Below, piece by piece: positions 1 through 23,771 of a stretch of DNA of 64,000 nucleotides; position 1 is the first letter of the stretch, and every line of letters starts with the position of its first letter. The notes beneath the pieces were generated by a model. That model made no database searches. It saw only the letters and a list, made by a program, of their open reading frames with translations, and was not told where the DNA came from. Made by a program: the position numbers and the translations under genes. Where the stretch lies: the sequence record NC_110934.1; one strand, given 5' to 3'. The stretch comes from Klebsiella phage KPP2018.

Positions 1-64
1 TCTTGTTCTGTCATGTTGCTCCCCCAGTTCAATTTATGTAATTATTATACAGAACTTTTGGAAA

Positions 65-352
65 CTAAGCAACTACATTTTTTAAGAATTTGATGCCTTT
101 CTTTCTCTTCTTATATTTCCACGTTAATGGATTCTGTCGATTATGAACACTTGAGATCTTTGTCTCATCAAAGTTCTTCAATATCATGTAATCACAAGAT
201 AGTTGTTCTAATGGAATGTGATCACCGTCAAAAGCGTGTACATAAGGTTGTTGACTAGCACGATAATGATAGACTTTGTTAATTCTACGTTTCAGCGACT
301 TATCCGCGCAGTAAATAAAGAAGTTTTCAGGATGCATCAGCAGCTCCTTCAA
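65..352 (-). CDS. hypothetical protein (95 aa); duplicated at 29529-29816
   Basis: ORF track; directly upstream (in transcription) of it lie tRNA genes, probably co-transcribed. Confidence 0.5.
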   Translation of the reverse strand: MKELLMHPENFFIYCADKSLKRRINKVYHYRASQQPYVHAFDGDHIPLEQLSCDYMILKNFDETKISSVHNRQNPLTWKYKKRKKGIKFLKNVVA

Positions 353-354
353 TT

Positions 355-429
355 TGGTGCACCCTGTTCGTATCGAACGAACCTCTCAAGCTCTTCAGGC
401 AAGCGCTAATCCATCTCAGCTAAAGGTGC
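355..429 (-). tRNA. tRNA, anticodon loop CUGAAGA (GAA, Phe-like); anticodon stem has two U-U mismatches
   Basis: Reverse complement GCACCUU..GUUCG-UUCGAUA-CGAAC-AGGGUGC-A-CCA: 7-bp acceptor, D-arm, T-arm and encoded CCA. Confidence 0.65.
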
Positions 430-435
430 AAATTT

Positions 436-512
436 TGGCAGGGGTAAAGGTATTCGAAACCTTTTCATGGGTTTTGGAGGCCCATTTGCAACCTATGCGT
501 ACCCCAATTATT
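436..512 (-). ncRNA. tRNA-like remnant (T-arm AAGGU-UUCGAAU-ACCUU, U1-U72 mismatch, 9-nt anticodon loop); possibly pseudo-tRNA
   Basis: T-arm and acceptor recognisable but D-arm and anticodon arm non-canonical. Confidence 0.3.
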
Positions 513-515
513 AAT

Positions 516-590
516 TGGCACACCCAACGAGGATCGAACTCGTGTTCCCACTGTGAAAGAGTGGTGTCCTAACCGCTAGACGATAGGTGC
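516..590 (-). tRNA. tRNA-Glu (UUC)
   Basis: Revcomp has acceptor, D-arm GUCUAGCGGUUAGGAC, anticodon stem CCACU/AGUGG with loop CUUUCAC, T-arm GAGUUCGAUCCUCG, CCA. Confidence 0.85.
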
Positions 591-597
591 ATTAAAT

Positions 598-685
598 TGG
601 TGGGGAAAGATGGAGTCGAACCACCCGAGTCGCAATGACAACTGATTTACAGTCAGCTCTGCTACCACTTACAGAATATTTCCCC
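598..685 (-). tRNA. tRNA-Tyr (GUA), type II with long variable arm
   Basis: Revcomp GGGGAAA..; anticodon loop CUGUAAA; long variable arm; T-arm GGUUCGACUCC; acceptor GGGGAAA/UUUCCCC; CCA. Confidence 0.8.
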
Positions 686-815
686 ATATTTAGAAGTATT
701 CAAAAATTCTCATTTAAACACTTTTAAATATGTTTCCAAATTAGATAAATATTATATCAAGTTTTATAGTATTGGGCAAGTCAAATTTTAAAGAACTTGC
801 CCAATGCTGTATTAG

Positions 816-1091
816 TTAGTCGAACTTAGGAGTGACAGTTAAGGAGAACGGAAGTTCAAAAACTTCTTCGCCCTCATCACTAATAGTGATTACACGACCT
901 TTAAGTTCAGACATTGAAATATCAATATCAGCTTTTGCATCTGGAGCCATGCCAGCTTCAATACATTTAGCTTTAATTTCCGGCAGAAGTTCTACATCGT
1001 AGAAATAAAGCCATTCAATCTCACCTTCCCAGCCTTCCCAGGATTTACAGATTGCACTTTCAATACCAGCAGCTATAACACGATTTTGCAT
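816..1091 (-). CDS. hypothetical protein (91 aa)
   Basis: ORF track; preceded by conserved early promoter/leader; duplicated at 30280-30555. Confidence 0.55.
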   Translation of the reverse strand: MQNRVIAAGIESAICKSWEGWEGEIEWLYFYDVELLPEIKAKCIEAGMAPDAKADIDISMSELKGRVITISDEGEEVFELPFSLTVTPKFD

Positions 1092-1160
1092 TCGTTAACT
1101 CCTTCATCAATTTATATAACTATTATATCAGAAATTTAAAGCAAAAGGCAAGTACATTTT
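1092..1160 (-). promoter_or_regulatory. Conserved T5-type early promoter (-35 TTGCCT, 17 bp, -10 TATAAT) plus conserved leader/RBS
   Basis: Minus-strand reading: ..TTGCCTtttgctttaaatttctgaTATAATagttatataaattgatgaaggag; member of >20-copy element family. Confidence 0.7.
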
Positions 1161-1181
1161 TAAAAATTCTGTTTGGAGGAG

Positions 1182-1388
1182 CTAAACTCCAGATTCTTCA
1201 GCCAAGTCTAGACTAATAAGAGATATAGCCATAATTGCTGCTCCGTGCTCTTTTTCTCCAGTCTCTTTAGCTAGAGTTATAATATCAAGAAATTGCTTAT
1301 GAAAATCTGCAACCTCTTGAGTTATACCTGCCTCAGCAATCATGCCTTTAAGCATGAAGCGTTGTGCGGTAATTTCAGGATTAGCCAT
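1182..1388 (-). CDS. hypothetical protein (68 aa)
   Basis: ORF track; start ATG overlaps stop of upstream small ORF (ATGGCTAA coupling). Confidence 0.5.
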   Translation of the reverse strand: MANPEITAQRFMLKGMIAEAGITQEVADFHKQFLDIITLAKETGEKEHGAAIMAISLISLDLAEESGV

Positions 1389-1548
1389 GTTGTTTCTCCA
1401 GTTTCATCTTTAATAGTCTACAAATAAAATCAATGTCTTCATCCGTGCCTAGATCTCTATCTTCAAGGGTTGCCTTGAAGTTTTTAGTCAATTCCATGAG
1501 AATAACTTCTCTAGAACGACGTGTTGGCGGAGGTGGATGTCTATACAT
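1381..1548 (-). CDS. hypothetical small protein (55 aa, MYRHPPPPTRRSREVILMEL...)
   Basis: Unlisted (<60 aa) ORF; stop overlaps start of 1182-1388 gene, typical translational coupling. Confidence 0.4.
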   Translation of the reverse strand: MYRHPPPPTRRSREVILMELTKNFKATLEDRDLGTDEDIDFICRLLKMKLEKQHG

Positions 1549-1563
1549 CTTATTTCCTTAATT

Positions 1564-1640
1564 TGGTAGGGGTGGTGGGATTCGAACCCACAAAACCTGA
1601 ATTTTAAGTCCAGTACCTATGCCAATTCGATTACACCCCC
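1564..1640 (-). tRNA. tRNA, anticodon loop CUUAAAA (UAA, Leu-like) but type-I length with short variable loop
   Basis: Revcomp GGGGGUG..acceptor pairs with CACCCCU; anticodon stem CUGGA/UUCAG; T-arm GUGGG-UUCGAAU-CCCAC; A-CCA. Confidence 0.6.
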
Positions 1641-1647
1641 ATGTAGT

Positions 1648-1836
1648 TTAGTCAATTACTTTTGAGGCTTCAAGGTAGTCGATATAGTGTACGTTTTCTA
1701 CCGTAATCATATAATCCGCCACTTTATCCATAGCTTGGGCTTCAGAGGTAGCTCTGGCTAACCTATATCCTTTTCTATACTCATCCGGGTATTCTCTATC
1801 TTGAATAAACACAACATAAACTATATATAGATCCAT
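1648..1836 (-). CDS. hypothetical protein (62 aa)
   Basis: ORF track. Confidence 0.45.
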   Translation of the reverse strand: MDLYIVYVVFIQDREYPDEYRKGYRLARATSEAQAMDKVADYMITVENVHYIDYLEASKVID

Positions 1837-1855
1837 TTGTGACCTCTATTTAATT

Positions 1856-1933
1856 TGGTGGCTCCCCGAGGATTCGAACCTACGTACCTTCCGGTTATGA
1901 GCCGGGTGCTCATACCATATGAGCTTGAGAACC
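1856..1933 (-). tRNA. tRNA-Met/Ile2 (CAU)
   Basis: Revcomp GGUUCUC..; anticodon stem CCGG with loop CUCAUAA; T-loop UUCGAAU (T-stem has mismatches); acceptor with two G-U pairs; CCA. Confidence 0.65.
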
Positions 1934-1939
1934 AAAATC

Positions 1940-2028
1940 TGGCGGAAGAAGTGGGAATCGAACCCACAAGGCTATATTTCAAACCGACAGATTAGCAATC
2001 TGCTGCAATACCATTATGCTATTCTTCC
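1940..2028 (-). tRNA. tRNA-Ser (GCU), type II
   Basis: Revcomp GGAAGAA..; anticodon stem GCAGA/UCUGU, loop UUGCUAA; long variable arm; T-arm GUGGG-UUCGAUU-CCCAC; G-CCA. Confidence 0.8.
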
Positions 2029-2049
2029 GAATTTATAAGATATATTATA

Positions 2050-2571
2050 TTAGAAATTTAGCTTCATAGCAAGAAAATTTTTCAAGTTTTCGGTAGACAT
2101 CTCATCCACATCTACAGGAGAAACAAATCCATTTAATTGTCTAGCAAACTTTTCACCAGCAGGATCATTGTCCCCAACAGCTACCAATTTAAAAGGTAGT
2201 AATTTCAGTTGCTTTAATAACGCTTTTCCTGGAGAAGAACCCAACATTGCCAGGGCTGGATAACCCGCATTATGTAATGCAACTGCCTTAAATACAGATT
2301 CAGCAATCAATACTACTTTTTCATCCCCATTGAGAGTTTCTAGTCCCCATACACACTGTGTAGTAGAATAAGTAAAGTATTTAGCTTCAAAGGGGCACTT
2401 ACCATGACCTTTTGGAGCAGAAGGATTATAAGTTTGATAGCCCCTCAACATTCCAGAGAAATCATACAACGGGACTGTTAGCCACCCTTCCGGACTTAAC
2501 CAGCAATGATATTTATCTGTATCAAATCCTCTAGATAAGAGGTGCTGTGTTAGCTCATCAACATTCATATT
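2050..2571 (-). CDS. Toprim-domain protein (DnaG-primase-like Toprim: E in IAES, DxD in AVGDNDPAG)
   Basis: ORF track 2050-2619; real start is Met17 (MNVDELTQ..) because the conserved TATAAT+ATAAATTTGAGAGAGG leader ends there. Confidence 0.6.
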   Translation of the reverse strand, partial: NMNVDELTQHLLSRGFDTDKYHCWLSPEGWLTVPLYDFSGMLRGYQTYNPSAPKGHGKCPFEAKYFTYSTTQCVWGLETLNGDEKVVLIAESVFKAVALHNAGYPALAMLGSSPGKALLKQLKLLPFKLVAVGDNDPAGEKFARQLNGFVSPVDVDEMSTENLKNFLAMKLNF

Positions 2572-2663
2572 TGGTTCCTCTCTCAAATTTATAGATATAT
2601 TATACAGAGAATTTAGCATTCAAGCAATCAAATTTTTTAACTTTTTAGAGGAAAATCATAGGG

Positions 2664-2686
2664 CACTTAAGGGTAGCAGATAAGTG
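2664..2686 (+). promoter_or_regulatory. Inverted repeat CACTTAAG-N7-CTTAAGTG-like (CACTTA..TAAGTG), candidate operator upstream of Gly-rich gene promoter
   Basis: cacttaagggtagcagataagtg: 6-bp arms are reverse complements. Confidence 0.3.
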
Positions 2687-2744
2687 GTGAGGACCAAAAT
2701 TTGTGACCCCACTAAAAATCCAGGGGCAATTTTTAAAGACCCCT

Positions 2745-2772
2745 TGACATTTTCGCTGGGGTAGTGTAAAGT
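2745..2772 (+). promoter_or_regulatory. sigma70-like promoter (TTGACA, 16 bp, TAAAGT) for the Gly-rich protein operon; copy 1
   Basis: cccTTGACAttttcgctggggtagtgTAAAGTatatg; not of the conserved phage early-promoter class. Confidence 0.55.
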
Positions 2773-2834
2773 ATATGTTATGGATGAGTGATCAAAGAGA
2801 CACACATTTTCTATATACTAGGAGGTGTCAAAAA

Positions 2835-3611
2835 ATGACAGAAGAAGTAGCTAAGAGTCCTGAGACCGTCGCTAGCGTTGCAGCAGAACTGCACCGTCAC
2901 GAGGAATCAGATAAGAAAAAGTGGGAGAAGGTCAGAGCCTACGAAGAGAAACATCGTGAACACGATGAAGATGATGAAGAAGATGACGATGATGAGTATT
3001 GTCATAAATATGGAAAACGTAAAATGCAAGAACCAGTAAACGTATTCACTAGTGGCTTCCCTGGCCTAATGGGTGGTTACCCAGCAAACGCAGGTGCTTT
3101 CGGTGGTGAAGGTATGGGACTATTCGGAGCTATCCTAATCGGTGCTCTATTAACAGGCGGATTCGGTGGTTTTGGTGGATTTGGTGGACGTGGTGTAGTT
3201 GGTGAAGGTACCGCAGTTGATGCAGTACTTCAGAACCAAGATACCGCTAGTATTCTAGCAGCTATTAACACTACTCGTACAGAAGCTAACCAGGGTACTG
3301 GAGCTGTTTTAAGCGCAGTTAACAATGGTTTTAGCCAGACATCCCAAAACCAGAGCCGTGATACTCAGTCTGTACTAACTACGATCTATGGTACGGGTGC
3401 TAATCTGTCTAATCAAATCTGCCAGGAAACTCGCAACGTTATTCAGGGTCAGTTCGATCTTTCTCGCCAGATTGATCAATCTTTCGCAGCTAACCAGATA
3501 GCTCGTGCACAAGATAAGTTTGATTCTGCACAGATCGCTTTCCAGCAGACTTTACAAACTAATAACCAGTTTGCCGCTGTTCAGGCTCAGATGTGTGCTA
3601 ACCAGTTATGA
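2835..3611 (+). pseudogene. Truncated copy (258 aa + 1 junction aa) of Gly-zipper/QN-rich membrane protein gene; truncated at repeat boundary 3605/3606
   Basis: RBS AGGAGG 9 nt before ATG 2835; identical to first 257 codons of the 331-aa gene at 32299-33291, then reads L-stop across the junction. Confidence 0.75.
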
Positions 3612-3711
3612 TAATGATCAAATCGATCAGCAAACGGCGGGCTTTTTGCTGGACACGCTGAAAGCGGAACACTGCACTAAAAAGCAAGCGGCAAAAATTA
3701 TTTTAATGTAA
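3607..3711 (+). pseudogene. Orphan C-terminal gene fragment (..YDNDQIDQQTAGFLLDTLKAEHCTKKQAAKIILM*) lacking N-terminus and start
   Basis: Open frame begins exactly at the repeat junction, ends at TAA 3709-3711, followed by hairpin GGGGCG-aaagtaa-CGCCCC. Confidence 0.5.
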
Positions 3712-3759
3712 TTAATAAAGGGGCGAAAGTAACGCCCCACTAACTAGGGAGTATTACAA

Positions 3760-3909
3760 ATGATTATTTTTCGAGCTATTCTGGCGGGTATCTTGGGCGC
3801 TATTTTATCTTTGTTTGCAATAGCTTTCGATGTTCACGCGGTTATTATCGGCGCGGGTATCGCTGCATTTTCTTATCTGCTGGGCTGCATGACTAGTAAA
3901 GGAGAATAA
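3760..3909 (+). CDS. small hydrophobic membrane protein (49 aa, MIIFRAILAGILGAILSLFAIAF...)
   Basis: Unlisted ORF; two predicted TM stretches; GC-richer than surrounding phage DNA. Confidence 0.5.
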   Translation: MIIFRAILAGILGAILSLFAIAFDVHAVIIGAGIAAFSYLLGCMTSKGE

Positions 3910-3911
3910 AA

Positions 3912-4124
3912 ATGATCCGCAACGTTTCTCTTGCACGTTCGAAAGGCTTTAAGCTGGTGGATGCTAACACGTTCGAGCGGGAAGATTGTAAAATCGAATA
4001 TGTAGCACGTAACAAAAATGCCTTTCGTGTTACTGAGAAAAAATTTGATAAGCGCGGCAACGTGATCGCTGAAACGGTTAAGCACTTTGCCACCTTTTAC
4101 GCTGCGTTTCGTGGGGTACTATGA
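3912..4124 (+). CDS. hypothetical protein (70 aa)
   Basis: ORF track; RBS GGAG 8 nt upstream; start 3 nt after previous stop. Confidence 0.55.
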   Translation: MIRNVSLARSKGFKLVDANTFEREDCKIEYVARNKNAFRVTEKKFDKRGNVIAETVKHFATFYAAFRGVL

Positions 4125-4261
4125 AAAGCGTTATCGTTATTGCCCTTGCAATGGTTGGCGGTTTTACCGCCACCTTATTCAAAAATGACCCCATTTCATT
4201 GGGGATCTTTATGTTATTATCTGGCTATCTAATTGGGAGGTTGTCAAATGGTTATTTATGA
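4121..4261 (+). CDS. small membrane protein (46 aa, MKSVIVIALAMVGGFTATLF...)
   Basis: Unlisted ORF; ATGA overlap with upstream stop; hydrophobic. Confidence 0.5.
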   Translation: MKSVIVIALAMVGGFTATLFKNDPISLGIFMLLSGYLIGRLSNGYL

Positions 4262-4592
4262 GGGCAATCGTTTTGTTGCTAATTGCCGTCCTGCATTATT
4301 AGCAAACTACTTAAATCAGCTTTCCCCAGCTTATAAGGGTGTTATTAATATTTATGAGGGCAAGGCGCATTATAAAATCAATGCGGTCGTTGCCCGTGAA
4401 CTAGCATTTCAATTTTTGACCTTTGCATCTTGTGATATTCAGGTCATGGGGGAAGCATTAATTGCAGAAAATGAAGATGATTTTATTAATATTTTCCGCA
4501 AGATATGCACCGAGCGGCTGATAATGAAAGGCGCGTATATTCAATCCACGGCTGATAGTATTGAAACAGCGTTTCGAAAGGTGGCGCAATGA
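4248..4592 (+). CDS. hypothetical protein (114 aa)
   Basis: ORF track 4233-4592; likely start ATG 4248 after RBS GGGAGG. Confidence 0.55.
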   Translation: MVIYEGNRFVANCRPALLANYLNQLSPAYKGVINIYEGKAHYKINAVVARELAFQFLTFASCDIQVMGEALIAENEDDFINIFRKICTERLIMKGAYIQSTADSIETAFRKVAQ

Positions 4593-4747
4593 AAAAGTTT
4601 TTAATAGCTGGCATGTTTCCGTTGTTGCCTTATGTAATTTGCTGGGCTTTATACGCTCATGGCGCTAGTGTTCCCGCTGTGGCTTCATTTGGTGTATCGG
4701 CGGGCTTTCTAGCTGGACTATTAGCAAGCGTATACTTACGCAAATAA
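4589..4747 (+). CDS. small membrane protein (52 aa, MKKFLIAGMFPLLPYVICWALYAHG...)
   Basis: Unlisted ORF; ATGA overlap with stop of previous gene. Confidence 0.5.
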   Translation: MKKFLIAGMFPLLPYVICWALYAHGASVPAVASFGVSAGFLAGLLASVYLRK

Positions 4748-4766
4748 TTAATAATGGGGCGTTATT

Positions 4767-4961
4767 ATGAGCAATAAAATTGTTGTAACCAAAATCAGTA
4801 CAATGGTTGATGTTTTTTACGTGCCCGATACGCCGGAAAACCGACAAGCGGTCGAGCGTGGAGAATATGATAAAGTGATTTATGATCACGATGGTTATTA
4901 TCAGCATTTAGTGGATTCCTACGGGGAGGAGGAGAAGATCACGCATCGACTACCAGACTAA
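4767..4961 (+). CDS. hypothetical protein (64 aa)
   Basis: ORF track; last gene before the non-coding repeat block. Confidence 0.5.
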   Translation: MSNKIVVTKISTMVDVFYVPDTPENRQAVERGEYDKVIYDHDGYYQHLVDSYGEEEKITHRLPD

Positions 4962-5000
4962 TAATCACGGGGCGCAACTATCAGGAAGTGCCCCCAATTC

Positions 5001-5025
5001 TCAAATGAGAATGATTCTCATTTGA
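5001..5025. promoter_or_regulatory. 25-bp palindrome TCAAATGAGAATGATTCTCATTTGA (Fur-box-like GATAATGATAATCATTATC relative)
   Basis: Perfect inverted repeat; half-site AATGAGAAT recurs in the downstream iterons. Confidence 0.4.
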
Positions 5026-5217
5026 CCGCGCCCGCGATGGTTAGCCTGCTAATGGTTAGGGTGTTACGTGTCGCCTTGTGTGATCGTTAGCGTGCTAACT
5101 AATTTTCAAGCCTCCTTCAATTTTGCCCTTGTTTTAGTATCCCCAACAAAATTAAACGCGTTAGAATGCGTTTGAGAGCGTTTTAACGCTATATTAGAAT
5201 TATTCACTGCGTAGGAA

Positions 5218-5237
5218 TACTGTATATTTATACAGTA
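5218..5237. promoter_or_regulatory. LexA (SOS) box TACTGTATATTTATACAGTA
   Basis: Perfect CTGT-N8-ACAG palindrome with AT-rich spacer matching E. coli LexA consensus. Confidence 0.55.
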
Positions 5238-5246
5238 GGATAAGCT

Positions 5247-5255
5247 GTGGATAAG
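5247..5255 (-). promoter_or_regulatory. DnaA box (TTATCCACA on minus strand)
   Basis: tgtggataa; second identical box at 5319-5327 and a 1-mismatch box (tgttgataa) at 5258-5266. Confidence 0.5.
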
Positions 5256-5318
5256 TCTGTTGATAACGCTTCAAAACGGCTAGAATTTTGTCAAGTCAAA
5301 TCGTGCTGTTAGTAAGTC

Positions 5319-5327
5319 TGTGGATAA
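5319..5327 (-). promoter_or_regulatory. DnaA box (TTATCCACA on minus strand), within repeated 13-mer AGTCTGTGGATAA
   Basis: Exact 9-mer consensus. Confidence 0.5.
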
Positions 5328-5350
5328 CTTAAATAACAGTGTTTCTCACT

Positions 5351-5530
5351 TCCGTTCTTAAATGAGAATCATTATCATTTGCATTTCACTATCTAACTAA
5401 TAATCATTCCGCTTTTTAAATGAGAATCATTCCGCTTTTTAAATGAGATTGATTCTCATTCCGCTTTTTAAATGCGAATTATTATCATTCTCATTCCGCT
5501 TTTTAAATGAGAATGATTCTTATTATCATT
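5351..5530. repeat. Iteron array A: 4-5 direct repeats of ~23-33 bp core CATTCCGCTTTTTAAATGAGAAT(CATT)
   Basis: cattccgctttttaaatgagaat repeated head-to-tail at 5405, 5428, 5455, 5488 with Fur-box-like AATCATTATCATT tails. Confidence 0.7.
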
Positions 5531-5538
5531 CGTATTTA

Positions 5539-5564
5539 GCGCAGGGCAATTGCCCTGCGCTTTT
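5539..5564. terminator. 22-bp perfect GC-rich palindrome GCGCAGGGCAATTGCCCTGCGC followed by TTTT (intrinsic-terminator-like or protein-binding site)
   Basis: Perfect dyad with 9-bp GC-rich arms and U-tract. Confidence 0.5.
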
Positions 5565-5787
5565 GTGCAAATCCGACATTGCTCCACGGGTGTTACGTGC
5601 GGGCGTGTATGTGCGAATCCGACAATCTTTGGTAGTGTGCAAATCCGACCCGAAAAATTTTTATAGTGTGCAAATCCGACAATGAATTTTCCCAAAAACT
5701 CCAGCAATCTCGAACTGCGTTCGAATCCTGTGGGGTATGTGCAAATTCGACACGGTTTTTCTAGGATTAAGATGTGCAAATCCGACA
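5565..5787. repeat. Iteron array B: six direct copies of GTGCAAATCCGACA (14 bp; variants GTGCGAATCCGACA, GTGCAAATTCGACA)
   Basis: Copies at 5565, 5611, 5637, 5668, 5739, 5774, irregular 26-71 bp spacing. Confidence 0.75.
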
Positions 5788-6098
5788 AGATTTTTGTGAC
5801 TTCGATTGGAGGGTGTGTGATTGTGTGGGTTTGGGGAGAAGATGAGAGAGCGAGAGAAAATAAGGGAAGAAACTGGAGGAGCAGCATGGGTGGCGTGTAA
5901 CGCCTGATTTGCTGCGTTTTTGGGGAAGAGTTGAGAAGATTTGGGTTAATTGGGCTTGGGGCGAGATAAAGTAAAATTTTATTAGCAAAATGGGGCAAAA
6001 TAGCTTGACAAGTGAAAATTCCTGTGGCTCTAAAAACTCAGGCAATCATGGGCCTTCGGCCCGAAATAATGCTGCTATTTTCAGGAGATTATATGTGC

Positions 6099-6165
6099 CT
6101 AAAAACTTAGGCATTTGTGCAAATCCGACCATAAATTTCTAGAAACACAATGTGCAAATCCGACA
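6099..6165. repeat. Palindrome TGCCTAAAAACTTAGGCA plus two further GTGCAAATCCGAC(A/C) iterons (6117, 6152)
   Basis: Same 14-mer as array B, 35 bp apart. Confidence 0.65.
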
Positions 6166-6204
6166 GTAATTTCTGGAAATGTGTTTTCAAAAAATGTCTC
6201 CTAG

Positions 6205-6295
6205 AAATAACCGCCCTCCCTATAACCGCCCTGTATTAAACCGCCTAGTATATGTTCCTAGAAACTTAGGAGAACCGCCCACTAGAAGCGTGATA
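6205..6295. repeat. Four direct repeats of AACCGCC(C) at ~13-22 bp spacing interleaved with CTAGAAA motifs
   Basis: ataaccgccctcc / ataaccgccctgt / taaaccgcctagt / gaaccgcccact. Confidence 0.5.
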
Positions 6296-6622
6296 TCTCG
6301 TGGGTATTTCGTGAGAACTCTGGAGTTTCTAGGAAAGTGTATGTGATCCTAGAGATGGGGAGCGGCAACAGGTGTATCATCTTGAACACAGATATTGCCT
6401 TTAAATATATTCGTATGTTTTAAAAGTAAATGATCCCCCATTTCATGTGAGATTCCTCGTGGGGCGCGTGAGTATTACGGAAGAACTCTAATATTGGCCC
6501 GCGCTAAGACTAGCCGCTATAGCACAGACGCAAATAGAGTTGTAATAATCATCGCCCCTAGAGTTCACAATAAGAGTTATTGTTAATCTATGAGATTATT
6601 ATAACATACATTTTTAATAACG

Positions 6623-7378
6623 TCAAGAAGATTTTGCTAACGTTTTTGGATTCTTCCTGGCTTTGAGATATATCCCTTTAGATGCTAGGTAAATATATGT
6701 TGCTAGGAATGAAGATTCTGATCCCGATTCCTCATAGGTTAACGTACCTCTAGGGTATTTATTTGTTTTAGGAGCATAGTTAAGCACAGCCGCAGTTAAT
6801 GATCCTAATCCTAGAACATCCGCAAGACGTCTAAAGGTATTCTCTTCATCATGAATAGCATAAAGAATGTTATCTTCAATATCCGTTAATGGAATCTTAC
6901 GGATATGAGATACTGCAATCCGTGCTATCATAGCTCCAATTGTTTTATTAATATCCTCGAAAGAAACACTCTCCATATATTTTAGAGGGGGAAGATGGTC
7001 ATATTTACATTTCTTAGGCGGAATAAGAAGTTGTTCAGGGTAAGCCTCTAGTGCCTGACGAACGTTTGCTTCTGGATATGTTGGCAAAGGTTCATCTATA
7101 ATAACATGTAAAAAGTTAGCTCTATGCCCTTTAGCAGTTGGATCTAAAGACTTGAGTACTTTATTCATATCCACATATGAATATGCTAGGTCTGCTTGAG
7201 GAGCATTAATATCAAACTTAATCTTCTTGCCCTCCCATTTAGCAGGGAACATCTCACAAACAAACATTACTGCATGTTTGACGTCTGGCTCTAGCTCTGA
7301 TAGACATTTGTGATCTGCTGTTACTGCTAAAGCGAGTATATTCTTAAATTTATTAGCTTCTTCAATCATATATCCCAT
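6623..7378 (-). CDS. hypothetical early protein (251 aa)
   Basis: ORF track; first of a long minus-strand early gene block. Confidence 0.6.
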   Translation of the reverse strand: MGYMIEEANKFKNILALAVTADHKCLSELEPDVKHAVMFVCEMFPAKWEGKKIKFDINAPQADLAYSYVDMNKVLKSLDPTAKGHRANFLHVIIDEPLPTYPEANVRQALEAYPEQLLIPPKKCKYDHLPPLKYMESVSFEDINKTIGAMIARIAVSHIRKIPLTDIEDNILYAIHDEENTFRRLADVLGLGSLTAAVLNYAPKTNKYPRGTLTYEESGSESSFLATYIYLASKGIYLKARKNPKTLAKSS

Positions 7379-7707
7379 GCCTGCTGACTAGTATCACTAA
7401 CTTGTGTCTTTTTCTCTCTTCGTGGTTTAAAAGTTCCTGTAGTATTACTTTTACTAGGTTCTAATTTATACCACAGCATTCCTAGCTGGTTAACCATATG
7501 AGCAACATTTCTAGGGGTCAATGGAGGTAGGGATTCACAGTTTGATATCTCTATTAATATATTAAATAATTCTGTCTCTTTAGCCTTACTGTTTACTACC
7601 ACCACGTATTCTAATGTCTCTACCTCAGAATCCTCGTCTTTATAGTAAAGGCTAAGAGTAATTAAATTTTCCCCAGCAGGAGTTATTTTTGTTTTACCAA
7701 ATATCAT
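7366..7707 (-). CDS. hypothetical protein (113 aa)
   Basis: ORF track; overlaps neighbours by a few nt. Confidence 0.55.
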   Translation of the reverse strand: MIFGKTKITPAGENLITLSLYYKDEDSEVETLEYVVVVNSKAKETELFNILIEISNCESLPPLTPRNVAHMVNQLGMLWYKLEPSKSNTTGTFKPRREKKTQVSDTSQQAWDI

Positions 7708-8321
7708 TAATTACCTCTCTTATCTTCATTAAGCGCAGCTCCCAACGCCTCCATAATAGCATCTTCTAAACTTCCATGTTTACTAGGATCATTAAAATGA
7801 ATAGCATAAACAGAACTCCTAGAAACTCCAGCATCCGCAGGTGCTACGCTTCGCATATCAGATTCAAAAGCTTCTTGAGTATGCTTTAACTGTACAGAAG
7901 GGCCGTAATCTTCACCAAACTTGTATGACTGCGTACTACTTATCACACCCCCACAAGGAACATTGTGCATATCCGACATTAATCTTTTATCGGAGTTATT
8001 CAGCATTGCGATTGGCCCTGACTGCCACGGATCTCGAATAGTTACTGGAGTACTGGGGCGGTTCACTTCAGCCTTCACAAGTTTGTACCCTGCATCGATT
8101 AATGCGTTAATTAGATTATCAGCTGGGATGCGAGCCTTGCCAAAAATCTTACGAGCATCTTCGAGCTTATCCTCAAGATCTTTACATGCTCTAAGGTCAG
8201 TGTGTGCAAATGTTAGCTTCATAGATTTAAATTGTACAGTAGCAGTTAAATCTTTAAAGCTATAATCCCATGTGTTCAGTTCATGATCCGGTACTACTTG
8301 AATAGGTTGTTGTGCAAACAT
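7707..8321 (-). CDS. hypothetical protein (204 aa)
   Basis: ORF track. Confidence 0.6.
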   Translation of the reverse strand: MFAQQPIQVVPDHELNTWDYSFKDLTATVQFKSMKLTFAHTDLRACKDLEDKLEDARKIFGKARIPADNLINALIDAGYKLVKAEVNRPSTPVTIRDPWQSGPIAMLNNSDKRLMSDMHNVPCGGVISSTQSYKFGEDYGPSVQLKHTQEAFESDMRSVAPADAGVSRSSVYAIHFNDPSKHGSLEDAIMEALGAALNEDKRGN

Positions 8322-8506
8322 TATATATTCTCCAGTTTGTCTAACAGTTTATGAGCTGCGATGTTATATTGAAAGAGTTCATTATTGAGAATTTCATTCT
8401 CACAGGTTAACTCTAGATTCTTAGTATTGAGGCGACTGCAAATCAGTATCAGTCCCAGGATTATTAGGAGTGAGCCTCCTAGTAATACAAGAAGTAATGT
8501 TTCCAT
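8321..8506 (-). CDS. small membrane protein (61 aa)
   Basis: ORF track; single hydrophobic helix. Confidence 0.5.
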   Translation of the reverse strand: METLLLVLLGGSLLIILGLILICSRLNTKNLELTCENEILNNELFQYNIAAHKLLDKLENI

Positions 8507-8739
8507 TATTTAATTCCCATGTAACGTTTGAGATATCCGATGAAGTCTTCCGCTGTATGCTCTACGCTACCTTGAGCTACGAATAGCTTGAGAGCTTCAC
8601 GTTGTAGTTTGAGAGCAGCTAACTCACCCCGTAATTTTATCAGATCTTCTGCTAGTTCTCTAGCTCTACGCATAATAACAAAAGATACAAGTACTACGAT
8701 GAATAACATAACTACTAAAATAATTGCTATGATTTCCAT
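8506..8739 (-). CDS. membrane protein (77 aa) with C-terminal coiled coil
   Basis: ORF track; N-terminal TM helix IIAIILVVMLFIVVLVSFVIM. Confidence 0.5.
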   Translation of the reverse strand: MEIIAIILVVMLFIVVLVSFVIMRRARELAEDLIKLRGELAALKLQREALKLFVAQGSVEHTAEDFIGYLKRYMGIK

Positions 8740-9017
8740 ATTAACATCCAGCTTTTATCACACATTTGGGCATGGTCTATCAGTTCATTCATTGATGTAT
8801 TGTTATCATAAATGCACTCTAGTATATACCTTCTATCAAATTCGTCAACCAAATATTCTACGTTATTTATTACTACTTTATACAGATCTGGGACTAGAGA
8901 GCATGTATTTGGTACGGGGCGACTGCTTAAGTCTATTTCGTTTTTACCCCATTCTGTTTTAAATAGTTTGTTACTAAGTGCTGCTAATGGGTTTGACCAC
9001 ACAATATAGCTACTCAC
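8727..9017 (-). CDS. hypothetical protein (96 aa)
   Basis: ORF track. Confidence 0.5.
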   Translation of the reverse strand: MSSYIVWSNPLAALSNKLFKTEWGKNEIDLSSRPVPNTCSLVPDLYKVVINNVEYLVDEFDRRYILECIYDNNTSMNELIDHAQMCDKSWMLIWKS

Positions 9018-9453
9018 TATTTATCTCCCTTCTTAACTTTGAAAACTTATTATACCAAACTATATGATTATCGTCAATTACAAATTTATGATAACATGCT
9101 GGCACGGTATAAGTTCCATAATCCGTGACACGCTGCACAACCTTGTGTGCACACAGTCGACAACCATGCCCTTCTAAATGAGATCTAGCAGTTTGCCAGT
9201 AATACCCTTCATGATCTGGGCAATAGATCTCGACTTGCTGTTGCATTGTTTTATAATTTACACGCTCATACCCAAAGAAAGCTCCATGAACTGCAACAGC
9301 TTTCTTGATAAATATAAGGTTTAGTGCTTCTTGCTGAAAGTCGGGATGTAGCTGCTTAATCTTAGTTCTATTAATAGATCCATCCGATTTGATAAACCTA
9401 TTTATTGGGAAGTTGTTAGCTTCCTCGATTAGTAATTCATTTACTTTTTCTCT
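9010..9453 (-). CDS. Cys/His-rich putative zinc-binding protein (possible HNH-like nuclease; ..YCPDHEGYYWQTARSHLEGHGCRLCAH..)
   Basis: ORF track 9010-9558; shortened to Met36 to avoid 100-nt overlap with next gene. Confidence 0.4.
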   Translation of the reverse strand, partial: REKVNELLIEEANNFPINRFIKSDGSINRTKIKQLHPDFQQEALNLIFIKKAVAVHGAFFGYERVNYKTMQQQVEIYCPDHEGYYWQTARSHLEGHGCRLCAHKVVQRVTDYGTYTVPACYHKFVIDDNHIVWYNKFSKLRREINSE

Positions 9454-9457
9454 CATA

Positions 9458-9682
9458 TTAGATATTCTCACACCTAAGGTAGAAACATTCGTAAGCATCA
9501 CCAGTAAACTCTTTACCTTGTAGTATACATTTAGCCTGGTCTTCTGGTACTCCGGCATCTAATAATTGTTGTTTACTTGGCTTTTCAGCGAATACCTTTA
9601 CAAAATATTCACCATCCTGATTATACTCATTTATATCTCTAGTAAGGACATATACTTGCATTTGAAATTCCTTGAAACACAA
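9458..9682 (-). CDS. hypothetical protein (74 aa)
   Basis: ORF track. Confidence 0.45.
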   Translation of the reverse strand: MCFKEFQMQVYVLTRDINEYNQDGEYFVKVFAEKPSKQQLLDAGVPEDQAKCILQGKEFTGDAYECFYLRCENI

Positions 9683-9715
9683 AAGGCCAGAACAATTAAG
9701 TCCTGGCCTCTAGAA

Positions 9716-10153
9716 TTAATGAAGTTGTTTACCACTTCTTAACATAGTGGCCGTTTCCATAAGATTTAACGTTGTATCACGCTTTTTGATTTGTTTGTCG
9801 AGTTCATCGGTGCGTTTGCCAATGTAAGCGTTAATAGCCATATTCATAGCTGAGGCGAGATCTTCTTTGGTTATCTCTTCATCATCTAAGGCTAATTTAG
9901 CCAAAGAATCGAACGCAATAGAAAGTCCTATAAGATCTGAGGTTTCACTAGCTAAGATGGGATCAATATTATCTATTGTTACTTCTAACATAGAGTTAAC
10001 AATATCTTCTCCGTCTACTAGACCAGATTCAATATTACTCTCCCATTCCTTCATCTGCTCCAGCAATGGATTTTTCTTTTCTGTCATGGTAGAGATTTCC
10101 TGTGTCAGTTGGTAAGAAGGACGATTGAGCTTTAGGTGGATGTTGTTTAGCAA
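9716..10153 (-). CDS. hypothetical acidic protein (145 aa; true start probably internal Met)
   Basis: ORF track; overlaps next ORF. Confidence 0.5.
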   Translation of the reverse strand: MLNNIHLKLNRPSYQLTQEISTMTEKKNPLLEQMKEWESNIESGLVDGEDIVNSMLEVTIDNIDPILASETSDLIGLSIAFDSLAKLALDDEEITKEDLASAMNMAINAYIGKRTDELDKQIKKRDTTLNLMETATMLRSGKQLH

Positions 10154-10496
10154 TCCAGTTAAGAATCAGCACACGACTAGGAACAATATCAGTGTTGTAC
10201 CAGAAATCGTGAACCCATTGACGAGCATCCTCAAACTTACCAAATTTATATGCTTTCTTAAACAATTTAAACCCAAAACAATCTGGTGTAAAGTCTACTT
10301 CACGATACTGAACTACTTTAGAACCGGTTAGGTCTTGGATTGCTGCATTAATTTCTGTATGAGAGAATTTTGTTTCGTGAAACTTATTAAAGAATCGGTA
10401 GTTGAAGCGTCCGTTCGTTTCGACAAACAACTGGATAAAGAGATCGTTAAATTGATTATCAAACCAGTAATTCTGTAGTTGTTGTAGTGCTGTCAT
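10035..10496 (-). CDS. hypothetical protein (153 aa)
   Basis: ORF track. Confidence 0.55.
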   Translation of the reverse strand: MTALQQLQNYWFDNQFNDLFIQLFVETNGRFNYRFFNKFHETKFSHTEINAAIQDLTGSKVVQYREVDFTPDCFGFKLFKKAYKFGKFEDARQWVHDFWYNTDIVPSRVLILNWIAKQHPPKAQSSFLPTDTGNLYHDRKEKSIAGADEGMGE

Positions 10497-10693
10497 TTAC
10501 GAACTCCGTTAATTGCCACGATGATGCCTTCGTACATAAAAGGAAGTAGTTCAGAAGTGTAGAAGATATTTTCCGTTATTCCTAGATGTCGAAAAAGTAT
10601 ATTAAATAATGCTGTTAGAAATACAATCTGAGGCAGTAATACAAAATACTCAGTTACAATCTTTGGTGCCTGATAAACAAGACGTTTTATCAT
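10493..10693 (-). CDS. small membrane protein (66 aa)
   Basis: ORF track; hydrophobic. Confidence 0.45.
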   Translation of the reverse strand: MIKRLVYQAPKIVTEYFVLLPQIVFLTALFNILFRHLGITENIFYTSELLPFMYEGIIVAINGVRK

Positions 10694-10792
10694 TGTTTTT
10701 AAGTCTCCTTATTACTTTGGCCTGCTCCACAATAATAAAAACTGCAAGCACTAATAGTGCTATTAGCCCCGCAGTAATTGGTACTAAATCAA

Positions 10793-11119
10793 TCATGGGA
10801 GACGCCATACGTAATTAGCTGTCTGTAGGATCTTAGGTGTGTCATTATGATACATTACTACAGACTTTGGTGAATAACTATCAGCTAGTTCTTTACGAAT
10901 CATCTTACATTCTTCACCAGTATCGATATTTTTAACTATCACTTTCATATTAAGAGGTGTTAATACAGAAAGTGGTTTCCAAGAGTCCTCAATTTCAATT
11001 CCTACCTTTTTCTCGATTAACATGAGAACTTCTAGTGTATCATCTGGAATACTAATATTATTATTCACAAACTGTAATATCTCATGTAAGGTATTTAATT
11101 CATTAAAATTAAGCTTCAT
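10793..11119 (-). CDS. hypothetical protein (108 aa)
   Basis: ORF track. Confidence 0.55.
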   Translation of the reverse strand: MKLNFNELNTLHEILQFVNNNISIPDDTLEVLMLIEKKVGIEIEDSWKPLSVLTPLNMKVIVKNIDTGEECKMIRKELADSYSPKSVVMYHNDTPKILQTANYVWRLP

Positions 11120-11354
11120 CTTTAAGAATATCCTCTACCATATCACAAGACTGTTGCAATTCATCAGCAATACGTTTAATATCGGTTTTTGTTACTTTAC
11201 CAACTAACATCACCAGTAACATAGAAAAGATAATAAGTGGAACTGGAATAACAAATAAAGCTACTTTAGCTACATTCTTTGGTGCCCATGTGTGGTATTT
11301 AGTAACCAGTACACCAACCACAATTAGATAAAACGCTAGAATAAACATCATCAT
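11109..11354 (-). CDS. membrane protein (81 aa, two TM helices)
   Basis: ORF track. Confidence 0.5.
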   Translation of the reverse strand: MMMFILAFYLIVVGVLVTKYHTWAPKNVAKVALFVIPVPLIIFSMLLVMLVGKVTKTDIKRIADELQQSCDMVEDILKDEA

Positions 11355-11632
11355 TTTTTAATCTCCGTAATTATCTGTGCGCGCATTACTTTATTAGGTA
11401 ATTTTGTATTCCCAGCTATTGCTTCAATATTGTTTAGTTTTTCTTTTAGAATATCTGAGCGTCTTTGTGCTAGTTCAATATCTTGTTCTTGTTCTATTAA
11501 GCGGCAGTGAAGTCCACTATTAGTAGTAAGCATACTCTCCATATTTTTTCGCATGCTTACAATACCAATAATCCCACCAATCGCTGCTAGTGTCATAAGA
11601 ACTAGTAGTCCAATGAGAATTTCAGTTAACAT
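11351..11632 (-). CDS. membrane protein (93 aa) with coiled coil
   Basis: ORF track; N-terminal TM. Confidence 0.5.
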   Translation of the reverse strand: MLTEILIGLLVLMTLAAIGGIIGIVSMRKNMESMLTTNSGLHCRLIEQEQDIELAQRRSDILKEKLNNIEAIAGNTKLPNKVMRAQIITEIKK

Positions 11633-11792
11633 TAAATACTCCTACATTTTTCGTTATCTGGGACTAATTTACACATTTCTACTTTCAGTTCTTTTGCTGA
11701 GTTTTCTAGTTTAGAAACTTTATTGTGAATAAGTCCCAAAAATATCGCTTGGAAAACTACCATTATTGCTACTAATGCTAGTTTATTCTCCA

Positions 11793-12062
11793 TTATTTCT
11801 TACCTTTCAGTTGCTTAACTTCACGCTCAAAAGATGCTGCACGACGTTCAGCAGTTGCCTGGTGCTCTTTCGCAAAACGAGCTTCCTGTTTTGCGAGGTT
11901 GAATGCCATAGCATTCTTATTCAGAGAATCATACATCTTTTTCATTGCCGGAATAGACATCTTCATGAGCTGACCCTCAAAACCCTGCATGTCGAGGAGA
12001 ATTGCCAGAACGTTAGCCATTTCGTTTTTAGTCATGTTTTCCATTAGAATTTCCTCTCTCAT
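11793..12062 (-). CDS. hypothetical protein (89 aa)
   Basis: ORF track; conserved promoter/leader directly upstream (12063-12120). Confidence 0.55.
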   Translation of the reverse strand: MREEILMENMTKNEMANVLAILLDMQGFEGQLMKMSIPAMKKMYDSLNKNAMAFNLAKQEARFAKEHQATAERRAASFEREVKQLKGKK

Positions 12063-12122
12063 TAATTTATGAACTTATTATACAGAATTTTAAGGCTTAA
12101 AGCAACTGAATTTTTTAATTAC

Positions 12123-12554
12123 TTACCAATCGTTAACAACGCCGGAGAACTCAGAAGCAAAAACTTTTTCAAATTTCTCTGCAATTTCAGGATGATCTTT
12201 GCAGATCAGCTCAATACAGGCTTCTGGAGTCATTCCTTCATCTTCAGGATCACCATAGTATTTATCCCAAAGATCATCAGGAATGATATGCTCCGCCAAA
12301 TCTTGGAAAGAGATTAACTGATAACGTTCTGCCTCCTCAGCGATAAGAATTTCGCACAGATCTTTATCTATATCGCTACGATAATCAGCAATTAATAGGG
12401 CATTGCAAGCATGACATTCCCAGACCATCAAACGTTCAGAGATAGGATTAGACTTATCTTGAACGTAAGACTGGAACAAGGTTCGGAAAGTTGCCTTAAC
12501 TTGTTCAAACTTATCTGCTGCTGCGAAAACTAGAGCTTTATCAACTTTGTTCAT
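12123..12554 (-). CDS. hypothetical acidic protein (143 aa)
   Basis: ORF track; conserved promoter/leader at 12565-12625. Confidence 0.55.
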   Translation of the reverse strand: MNKVDKALVFAAADKFEQVKATFRTLFQSYVQDKSNPISERLMVWECHACNALLIADYRSDIDKDLCEILIAEEAERYQLISFQDLAEHIIPDDLWDKYYGDPEDEGMTPEACIELICKDHPEIAEKFEKVFASEFSGVVNDW

Positions 12555-12721
12555 TTTGATTCCTTCTCATCAATTTATAAAGTAATTATATAGAAACTTA
12601 AGCATTTTAGCAAATAAAACTTTTAATTAAAATGCCTAATCCTATGCCAATAGCAATACAAATGATTATAAGTATTGCTATCGCTTGTATGATTCGTTTA
12701 ATAATAGCCTCAGCTATATAT

Positions 12722-14354: not shown

Positions 14355-14358
14355 TTAA

Positions 14359-23770: not shown

Positions 23771-23771
23771 A

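What the first reader, a model, noticed from the sequence alone, without database searches (positions are those of the whole stretch)
3590..3745. Chimeric junction: truncated gene fused to an orphan C-terminal gene fragment
At the right edge of repeat copy 1 the Gly-rich ORF reads ..QAQMCANQ then L-stop.
- In a different frame an open segment begins exactly at 3607 and encodes ..YDNDQIDQQTAGFLLDTLKAEHCTKKQAAKIILM*.
- That segment has no start codon, RBS or N-terminus.
- It is followed by a GGGGCG..CGCCCC hairpin.

Two broken genes abutting with no shared homology is the signature of non-homologous joining. It marks the exact breakpoint of a rearrangement.
Basis: seen in the sequence. Interest (0 to 1): 0.6.

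Follow-up and report, generated by a model that had tools for sequence, protein, structure and literature searches.

The report
Duplication joint in a T5-like phage record
The two abutting broken genes are real in the sequence, but they mark the single joint of an exact 29.5-kb back-to-back duplication in the GenBank record of Klebsiella phage KPP2018, which is most likely an assembly artefact rather than biology.

Summary
At window 3605|3606, a 100% identical 3,605-nt repeat (1-3605 = 29465-33069) stops. Homology to the terminal-repeat region of T5-like phages starts at the very next base.

- **Left gene:** the T5.077 ortholog (phrog_8119, 330 aa), cut after codon 257. An intact copy lies at 32299-33291.
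- **Right fragment:** residues 43-76 of the 76-aa pre-early T5.012 family (phrog_5145).
- **Source:** the truncated product is exactly WBF69907.1, KPP2018_118, of Klebsiella phage KPP2018 (OQ031075.1, 137,988 bp).
- **Extent of the duplication:** eight genes from the first 10 kb of 3606-33069 carry two KPP2018 accessions each, 67-68 CDS apart. KPP2018_118/_186 mark the right ends. So the whole 29,464-bp unit is present twice, head to tail, and this junction is its only novel joint.
- **Size:** 137,988 - 29,464 = 108,524 bp, a normal repeat-collapsed T5-like genome.
- **Precedent and uniqueness:** a published comparison already removed this duplication. No other sequence in six collections has the joint.

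Best reading (about 0.7): an untrimmed assembly overlap joined end to start. A real duplication or a defective-genome joint is not excluded. Interest is low.

The parts
1..3605 (+). Last 3,605 nt of the first copy (B1) of the duplicated unit. It carries tRNA-Phe, Glu, Tyr, Leu and Ser, the T5.071-076 orthologs and the 5' 78% of the T5.077 ortholog.
   Evidence: 100% identical to 29465-33069. The tRNAs are duplicated at 29819-31492.
2744..2772 (+). Sigma-70-like promoter (TTGACA-17-TAAAGT), in the position of T5 early promoter P12, which drives T5.077.
   Evidence: T5 annotates P12 just upstream of T5.077.
2835..3611 (+). Truncated T5.077 ortholog: 257 native codons plus Leu plus TGA, lacking the C-terminal 73 aa. 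It is annotated as KPP2018_118 (WBF69907.1).
   Evidence: The full-length family is phrog_8119, profile 1-332.
3605..3606 (.). The novel joint: the end of the duplicated unit (equivalent to 33069) joined to the start of the unit. There is zero microhomology and no filler bases.
   Evidence: The joint is absent from every other sequence searched.
3606..3711 (+). 3' fragment of the pre-early T5.012 ortholog: the last base of codon 42, codons 43-76 and the stop. It has no start codon or RBS of its own.
   Evidence: 34/34 aa identical to residues 43-76 of P0183. Full-length 76-aa genes exist in T5, chee24, SaI_NFG_5581 and Th1. The family is phrog_5145, a 76-position profile.
3505..3711 (+). Mechanical 68-aa chimeric ORF: a GTG in an alternative frame of T5.077 fused to the T5.012 tail. 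It is very probably not expressed.
   Evidence: The exact sequence is not in the protein collection.
3720..3738 (.). Native T5.012/T5.013 intergenic hairpin (6 G-C pairs, 7-nt loop).
   Evidence: It is conserved with compensatory changes in relatives. There is no T-run on the + strand.
3760..3909 (+). T5.013 ortholog (49 aa, phrog_5607), the first intact gene of the second copy. It is annotated as KPP2018_119, with an identical twin KPP2018_051.
3606..33069 (+). Complete second copy (B2) of the 29,464-bp duplicated unit. It holds the last ~2.3 kb of the terminal repeat including the injection-stop region, early genes and the tRNA cluster, and ends inside T5.077.
   Evidence: Unit length equals the repeat period. 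The unit is collinear with relatives. Eight proteins from its first 10 kb have two KPP2018 accessions each.
32299..33291 (+). Intact T5.077 ortholog (330 aa), annotated as KPP2018_186, in its native context and followed by the T5.078 ortholog.

Best explanation
The junction at 3605|3606 is the one novel joint of an exact head-to-tail duplication of a 29,464-bp unit (window 3606-33069) in the GenBank record of Klebsiella phage KPP2018 (OQ031075.1, 137,988 bp).

The unit starts inside the pre-early gene T5.012, in the terminal repeat, and ends inside the early gene T5.077. At the joint, a 3'-truncated T5.077 therefore abuts a 5'-truncated T5.012. That much is shown.

The rest is inferred. The duplication is most likely not present in virion DNA. 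The likely route is:

1. A contig of the terminal-repeat-collapsed, circular-looking genome over-ran its own start by 29.5 kb.
2. Its end was then joined to its start when the sequence was circularised or rotated.
3. The contig's first base may have been a read end at a break near a T5-type nick motif.

The two gene fragments, the 68-aa chimeric ORF and the hairpin then have no function as a unit.
For: **Structure**
- 1-3605 is 100% identical to 29465-33069, and identity ends exactly at 3605.
- The distance from the joint to the end of copy 2 equals the repeat period of 29,464.

**Source**
- The truncated 258-aa product is exactly WBF69907.1, KPP2018_118, on a 137,988-bp contig. The full-length protein is KPP2018_186.

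**Whole unit duplicated**
- Eight proteins from window 3760-13243 each carry two KPP2018 accessions offset by 67-68 CDS: 051/119, 052/120, 053/121, 058/125, 059/126, 060/127, 067/134 and 075/142.
- KPP2018_118 and _186, 68 CDS apart, are the T5.077 genes at the right ends of the two copies.

**Artefact indicators**
- All duplicated proteins tested, and the 3,605 nt visible in both copies, are identical.
- 137,988 - 29,464 = 108,524 bp, the size of ordinary repeat-collapsed relatives, which run 106-113 kb.
- Only two copies of the T5.013 ortholog are listed for the record, and both are accounted for by the duplication. The record therefore holds one terminal repeat, and a real genome would be about 148 kb.
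- The largest other T5-like record seen is 124,537 bp. KPP2018 is the longest Tequintavirus, against a median of 110,832 bp (PMC12639943).
- None of 272-444 matching phage records crosses the joint. The joint has no match in the E. coli genomes or plasmids collections, or in viral, genome or metagenome contigs.
- The terminal-repeat-side breakpoint lies 1 nt from a GCGC|T motif, the geometry of the annotated T5 major nicks. GCGC[CT] occurs about once per 2.6 kb here. T5-type virion DNA breaks at nicks (PMC10644984), which fits a read or contig end.
Against: - No reads, assembly method or record header could be examined. The record is held out of the tools, so the artefact step is inference.
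- The record evidently does not start at the joint, since about 50 CDS precede the first copy. The artefact model therefore needs an extra rotation step.
- The published note says '~20 kb', not 29.5 kb.
- A blunt joint 1 nt from a nick-type motif would also fit a real break-and-join event in vivo.
- Exact identity of the copies also fits a very recent real duplication.
Confidence: 0.7

Rival explanations
1. The junction exists physically but belongs to a minority of defective or replicative molecules. One example is a roughly 79-kb deletion joining T5.077 to T5.012 of the right terminal repeat, giving a mini-genome of about 40 kb with both natural ends. With the terminal repeat collapsed in the assembly graph, this one extra edge forms a cycle, which the assembler unrolled into a tandem duplication.
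For: - One joint is enough to explain everything seen.
- Copies produced by traversing the same graph edges twice are identical by construction, which fits.
- The terminal-repeat-side break lies 1 nt from a nick-type GCGC|T motif, a plausible site for a replication-associated double-strand end.
Against: - No defective-interfering genomes of this kind are known to me for T5-like phages.
- An assembler would follow the edge only if it had substantial read support.
- There is no read data.
- There is no microhomology at the joint.
Confidence: 0.13
2. KPP2018 virions really carry a 29.5-kb tandem duplication made by illegitimate (blunt, non-homologous) end joining, perhaps started at a strand nick in T5.012.
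For: - The joint is clean and blunt, and the rest of the window is a normal collinear T5-like genome.
- The record was deposited and annotated with both copies.
- The break is next to a nick-type motif.
Against: - The implied packaged genome is about 148 kb, against at most 124.5 kb for every other T5-like record seen. T5 heads package a fixed unit cut at specific ends (my background knowledge).
- The duplication would put a second injection-stop region and a second repeat boundary inside the genome.
- There is no divergence between the copies.
- The joint is unique among all the collections searched.
- Specialists discarded the duplication.
Confidence: 0.1
3. The repeat is only about 3.6 kb. 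It would then be either a short dispersed copy inserted into T5.012 or a separate small contig concatenated in front of a larger one.
For: Window base 1 coincides with the repeat start. It also coincides with a natural ~370-nt indel site flanked by the 7-nt repeat TCTTGTT in relatives L007, L009 and L011. That looked like an assembly-graph node.
Against: - Genes at the far left of the unit (window 3760-13243) also have exact twins 67-68 CDS upstream in the same record, so the first copy extends about 26 kb beyond the window's left edge.
- The coincidence is best explained by the window being an arbitrary slice of the record, for instance bases 64,001-128,000.
Confidence: 0.03
4. The junction creates a functional new gene: the truncated T5.077, or the 68-aa chimeric ORF that carries the T5.012 tail.
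For: The truncated T5.077 keeps its promoter-like site and its AGGAGG ribosome-binding site, so it would be expressed if the DNA exists.
Against: - The 68-aa ORF starts at a GTG with no Shine-Dalgarno sequence, in an alternative frame. It is not annotated or found anywhere else.
- No other phage has a T5.077 or T5.012 of these lengths. The families are uniformly about 327-330 aa and 74-76 aa.
- There is no sign of selection, because the copies are identical.
Confidence: 0.01

Closest known systems
The duplication in the Klebsiella phage KPP2018 record (OQ031075.1), noted in the BF23 genome paper (PMC10644984)
   Same: It is the same object. The junction-specific truncated protein is exactly KPP2018_118, on the 137,988-bp record. 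The paper removed a large duplication from this genome before comparing genomes.
   Different: The paper gives the size as '~20 kb' and no coordinates. Here the unit is measured at 29,464 bp. Its joint is placed to the base, and the two interrupted genes are identified as the T5.077 and T5.012 orthologs.
Untrimmed end overlap of a contig assembled from a circular or circular-looking genome, a common long-read assembly artefact (my background knowledge)
   Same: - The two copies are exact.
- Record length minus one unit gives a normal genome size.
- The joint equals contig end joined to contig start, with no homology and no filler.
- One side of the joint lies at a likely DNA or read end.
   Different: - The joint is internal to the record, so a later rotation must be assumed.
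- The assembly method is unknown.
- No reads could be inspected.
Tandem duplications with novel joints formed by illegitimate recombination in phage genomes such as lambda and T4 (my background knowledge)
   Same: The arrangement is head to tail, with a single novel joint and little or no homology at it. Both interrupted genes keep an intact copy at the outer borders.
   Different: Known viable cases respect the packaging limit, and often compensate for a deletion. Here the genome would grow by about 25% in a phage with fixed ends, and no compensating deletion is visible in the window.
T5 single-strand interruptions (nick sites), consensus 5'-R/GCGCRGG-3' on the nicked strand (PMC3517423; T5 record annotation)
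   Same: All five relatives checked have CAGGCGC|TTTATGAT at the terminal-repeat-side breakpoint. The break lies 1 nt from the position where the annotated T5 major nicks fall relative to GCGC.
   Different: Only the R/GCGC core matches (GCGCCTG against GCGCRGG). No nick is annotated there in T5. The other side of the joint has no such motif within 70 nt.

Membership tests
Novel joint of a head-to-tail (tandem) duplication | The sequence left of the joint is the end of a unit whose start is the sequence right of the joint, and the repeat period equals the unit length. | tested here: met
   1-3605 = 29465-33069 at 100% identity. The unit 3606-33069 is 29,464 nt, equal to the offset between the copies.
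Novel joint of a head-to-tail (tandem) duplication | The whole unit, not just its end, is present twice and adjacent. | tested here: met
   The evidence is indirect. Eight proteins from the first 10 kb of the unit have two KPP2018 accessions each, 67-68 CDS apart, and KPP2018_118/_186 mark the right ends. The DNA of the first copy left of the window could not be read.
Novel joint of a head-to-tail (tandem) duplication | Each interrupted gene keeps an intact copy at the outer border of the duplication. | tested here: inconclusive
   The intact T5.077 ortholog is at 32299-33291. The intact T5.012 expected before KPP2018_051 lies outside the window and was not found in the cluster listings.
Assembly or circularisation artefact (untrimmed contig overlap) | The copies are exactly identical, and the record minus one unit gives a normal genome length. 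| tested here: met
   There are 0 mismatches in 3,605 nt, and the twin proteins are identical. 137,988 - 29,464 = 108,524 bp, against 106-113 kb for relatives.
Assembly or circularisation artefact (untrimmed contig overlap) | The joint is not supported by raw reads, and read depth over the unit is not doubled. | not testable with these tools
   The record and any reads are unavailable. Look-ups of other window proteins returned no Logan contig of the same strain.
T5.012 pre-early protein family (phrog_5145) | A full-length protein of about 76 aa with its own start codon. | tested here: not met
   Only residues 43-76 are encoded, at 3606-3711. These are 34/34 identical to P0183. Family members are 74-76 aa, and the profile has 76 positions.
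T5.077 early protein family (phrog_8119) | A full-length protein of about 330 aa matching the whole profile. | tested here: not met
   The copy at 2835-3611 stops after residue 257, plus one Leu. The copy at 32299-33291 matches profile positions 1-332 with E = 2e-204.
Intrinsic (rho-independent) terminator, for the 3720-3738 hairpin | A G+C-rich stem-loop followed by a T-run on the transcribed (+) strand. | tested here: not met
   The stem is present, with 6 G-C pairs, and folds at -13.3 kcal/mol with z = -2.1. The scan scores it only on the - strand. On the + strand it is followed by ACTAACTAGG.
T5 nick site (5'-R/GCGCRGG-3') | Match to the consensus at the breakpoint. | tested here: inconclusive
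   The core R/GCGC is present 1 nt from the terminal-repeat-side breakpoint in T5, chee24, SaI_NFG_5581, Th1 and L017. The 3' part is CTG, not RGG (PMC3517423). Whether the site is actually nicked cannot be tested here.

The most novel reading that the evidence does not exclude
The joint is physically real. It would have formed when a double-strand end arising at a minor T5-type nick in T5.012 was blunt-joined to a break in T5.077. The product would be either a roughly 148-kb tandem-duplication genome or a roughly 40-kb defective mini-genome that keeps both natural ends. Either would be a first sequence-level example of nick-initiated illegitimate recombination, or of defective genomes, in a T5-like phage.
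Probability: 0.15. Interest if true: 0.5.

Novelty: not a real feature. Interest (0 to 1): 0.12.

Why it matters
The value is mainly in curation.

- OQ031075.1 is counted as the longest Tequintavirus, and its 68 extra CDS and duplicated tRNA genes inflate gene and tRNA counts. The report gives the exact unit (29,464 bp) and the joint, so the duplicate can be trimmed.
- The truncated protein WBF69907.1 (UniRef100_A0AAF0APL8) should not be treated as a natural variant of the T5.077 family.

If the joint proved real in virion or intracellular DNA, it would bear on how nicks in T5-type genomes seed rearrangements. Nothing here requires that.

Tried and rejected
1. **Search for the joint elsewhere.** I used megablast of 600-nt and 2.6-kb junction queries against the phages, E. 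coli genomes and plasmids collections. I also ran exact 22-41-nt joint patterns against viral, genome and metagenome contigs. Nothing crosses the joint.

2. **Recover the source contig or an independent assembly of the same phage.** I tried exact-protein look-ups with 258-, 278-, 330-, 114-, 811- and 204-aa products.
   - The Logan contigs returned are 88-99% identical relatives, not the same strain.

3. **Hypothesis that the repeat is only 3.6 kb** (a dispersed insertion, or a small contig concatenated in front).
   - It was suggested by window base 1 coinciding with a natural indel site flanked by TCTTGTT.
   - It was rejected because genes at the start of the unit also have twins 67-68 CDS upstream.

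4. **Hypothesis that a reference genome starts at that base,** which would explain a rotation. No record starts there.

5. **Microhomology at the joint.** There is none. An alternative 'CAG' alignment needs an extra 5-nt deletion and is not parsimonious.

6. **The hairpin as a rearrangement-associated or terminator element.** It is native and conserved, and lacks a + strand T-run.

7. **Confirm an intact T5.012 (KPP2018_050) through protein clusters.** It was not listed.

8. **Older literature.** Davison 2015 and Shaw et al. 1979, on T5/BF23 pre-early genes and deletion mutants, are not held in the library.

Full report
**1. What is in the sequence**

The window is DNA of a T5-like phage (Demerecviridae, Tequintavirus). 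It matches several hundred such genomes at 88-98% identity and carries the typical tRNA cluster.

Window 1-3605 is 100% identical to 29465-33069, and the first mismatch is base 3606. Five tRNA genes are therefore present twice.

Left of 3605|3606 lies a Gly-rich ORF with an AGGAGG ribosome-binding site and an ATG at 2835. It reads ...QAQMCANQ, then Leu, then TGA at 3609-3611. In the second copy the same ORF continues for 73 more codons to 33291, giving 330 aa.

From 3606 the sequence is homologous to the terminal-repeat region of T5-like phages. Examples are chee24 at position 7880 of a 9,968-bp left terminal repeat, and Th1 at position 7075.

**2. Identity of the two broken genes**

- **Gly-rich protein.** This is the ortholog of T5.077 (phrog_8119). 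The full-length copy matches the whole 332-position profile with E = 2e-204. In T5 this gene is transcribed from early promoter P12 and followed by T5.078 and T5.079. The window copy at 2835-3611 keeps 257 of 330 codons.
- **34-residue segment.** YDNDQIDQQTAGFLLDTLKAEHCTKKQAAKIILM is residues 43-76 of the 76-aa pre-early protein T5.012 (phrog_5145, a 76-position profile).
  - T5 (7624-7854), chee24, SaI_NFG_5581 and Th1 all encode the complete 76 aa, with the N-terminal 42 codons directly upstream.
  - Every family representative found is 74-76 aa apart from two shorter low-coverage hits.
  - One representative, P0183, is 34/34 identical to the fragment.
  - T5.012 has no known function and was not toxic when expressed in E. 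coli (PMC8201957).
- **Downstream genes.** The ORFs at 3760, 3912 and 4248 are the T5.013, T5.014 and T5.015 orthologs, in native order.
- **Hairpin.** The hairpin at 3720-3738 is the native T5.012/T5.013 intergenic hairpin. It is conserved with compensatory changes and has no T-run on the + strand.

**3. Anatomy of the joint**

| Sequence | Reads |
|---|---|
| Left parent (copy 2) | ...GTGCTAACCAG\|AACTCTCTGG |
| Right parent (T5, chee24, SaI_NFG_5581, Th1, L017) | ...CCATTCAGGCGCT\|TTATGATAATG |
| Window | ...GTGCTAACCAG\|TTATGATAATG |

There is no shared base at the joint and no filler.

The T5.012 frame stays open upstream into an alternative frame of T5.077, giving a mechanical 68-aa ORF from a GTG at 3505. 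It has no Shine-Dalgarno sequence and is not an annotated protein anywhere.

**4. Where the window comes from, and how far the repeat extends**

An exact-sequence look-up identified the junction-truncated 258-aa product as WBF69907.1, 'hypothetical protein KPP2018_118 [Klebsiella phage KPP2018]', on a 137,988-bp contig. The full-length protein is KPP2018_186.

Eight proteins encoded at window 3760-13243 each carry two KPP2018 accessions, 67-68 CDS apart: 051/119, 052/120, 053/121, 058/125, 059/126, 060/127, 067/134 and 075/142. CDS 051-118 and 119-186 are therefore two copies of one block. The first copy starts where the right side of the joint starts, at the T5.013 ortholog. It ends where the left side of the joint ends, at the truncated T5.077.

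Because the unit 3606-33069 is exactly as long as the repeat period of 29,464 nt, the structure is A-B-B-C: a head-to-tail duplication with one novel joint. That joint is the finding.

The change of offset from 68 to 67 comes from annotation, not sequence. The 52-aa ORF at 4589-4747 is annotated only in the first copy, as KPP2018_054, although the second copy encodes it identically.

Copy 2 sits in its native context. Relatives align straight across 29465 and across 33069/33070. The remainder of the window is collinear with ordinary T5-like genomes.

**5. Real or artefact**

The following points argue for an artefact:

1. The copies are identical in everything that can be compared.
2. 137,988 - 29,464 = 108,524 bp, a typical length for T5-like records with one terminal repeat (106-113 kb).
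3. Only two T5.013 orthologs are listed for the record, and both belong to the duplication. The record therefore holds a single terminal repeat, and a packaged genome with the duplication would be about 148 kb.
4. KPP2018 is the longest Tequintavirus record, against a median of 110,832 bp (PMC12639943). The largest other T5-like record in my searches is 124,537 bp, and that one includes both repeats.
5. The duplication would place a second injection-stop region and a second repeat boundary inside the genome.
6. No other sequence in six collections contains the joint.
7. The authors of the BF23 genome paper 'removed' a large duplication from KPP2018 before comparison (PMC10644984).

A simple route is a contig of the circular-looking, repeat-collapsed genome that over-ran its own start by 29.5 kb. 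Its end was then joined to its start on circularisation or rotation. That produces exactly A-B-B-C, with a blunt, homology-free joint.

One detail fits this route. The terminal-repeat-side breakpoint lies 1 nt from GCGC|T, which is where the two annotated T5 major nicks in the fetched regions fall relative to GCGC. GCGC[CT] occurs only about once per 2.6 kb in this window. T5-type virion DNA is known to break at nicks (PMC10644984), so a read, and hence a contig, could start there. The motif matches only the R/GCGC core of the major-nick consensus R/GCGCRGG (PMC3517423), so this remains a lead and not evidence.

I could not examine reads, the record header or the assembly method. The record is held out of the tools. 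The artefact step is therefore inferred, and I put it at about 0.7.

**6. Rivals**

- **Real joint in a minority of molecules.** A defective or replicative molecule, for example T5.077 joined to T5.012 of the right terminal repeat in a mini-genome of about 40 kb, could be unrolled by the assembler into a duplication. I put this at about 0.13.
- **True 29.5-kb tandem duplication in virions.** I put this at about 0.1. The main objections are genome size and the duplicated internal repeat boundary.
- **Repeat of only 3.6 kb, or concatenated contigs.** I considered this seriously because window base 1 coincides with a natural ~370-nt indel site flanked by TCTTGTT in some relatives. The locus-tag evidence excludes it, and I treat the coincidence as chance.
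- **New functional gene created by the joint.** This has no support.

**7. Comparison with what is known, and verdict**

The object is the duplication already noticed in the KPP2018 record. What is new here is only its exact size, the base-level joint and the identity of the two interrupted genes.

It has the form of a classical tandem-duplication novel joint. As biology it is unproven and improbable. As a database feature it is real and worth correcting, because it adds 68 surplus CDS, surplus tRNA genes and a spurious truncated protein entry.

Interest is low.

Noticed in passing
window 29465-29471 (equivalent to window 1-7); L007, L009, L011: Some relatives carry a ~370-nt insertion with two small ORFs of 63 and 74 aa. 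It lies between tRNA-Cys and the T5.071 ortholog and is flanked by the 7-nt direct repeat TCTTGTT. The window lacks it. Window base 1 falls exactly on the first base of that repeat, which I take to be coincidence.
   Followed up: partly
window 3912-4124 and 4248-4592: PHROGs and RefSeq attach 'endonuclease nicking abasic sites generated by host Ung' to the 70-aa T5.014 family (phrog_4227). Pfam PF26847 (Phage_T5_AP_Endonuclease), UniRef and the PNAS paper on T5.015 point to the neighbouring 114-aa protein instead. The label looks shifted by one gene.
   Followed up: partly
window 4589-4747: This 52-aa ORF is annotated in the first copy of the duplication (KPP2018_054) but has no annotated twin in the second copy, although the sequence is the same. 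So the record's annotation is inconsistent between identical copies.
   Followed up: yes
window 25-48523, 22 sites (for example 2580-2641, 12058-12119, 35889-35950): A family of 62-68-nt direct repeats (...AATTTAT..TATTATAC...AGCAA..AAATTTTT...) recurs upstream of minus-strand gene blocks. These look like the T5 early promoters read on the opposite strand.
   Followed up: no
window about 5,400-6,400: This is a long non-coding stretch with many short internal repeats; the overlapping ORF translations repeat motifs such as CRICT and CKSD. It corresponds to the T5 injection-stop-signal region at the inner end of the terminal repeat. Because it lies inside the duplicated unit, the record contains it twice.
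   Followed up: no
protein clusters (P0007, P0193): Another T5-like sequence in NCBI sits on a 148,669-bp contig. Its T5.012 homolog (P0193, 74 aa) looks frameshifted in the C-terminal half. This may be a second oversized or error-containing T5-like record worth checking.
   Followed up: no
window 26803-26863 and 60840-60900: There is a 61-nt inverted repeat, 87% complementary, with its arms 34 kb apart. One arm overlaps a promoter-like repeat of the family above.
   Followed up: no
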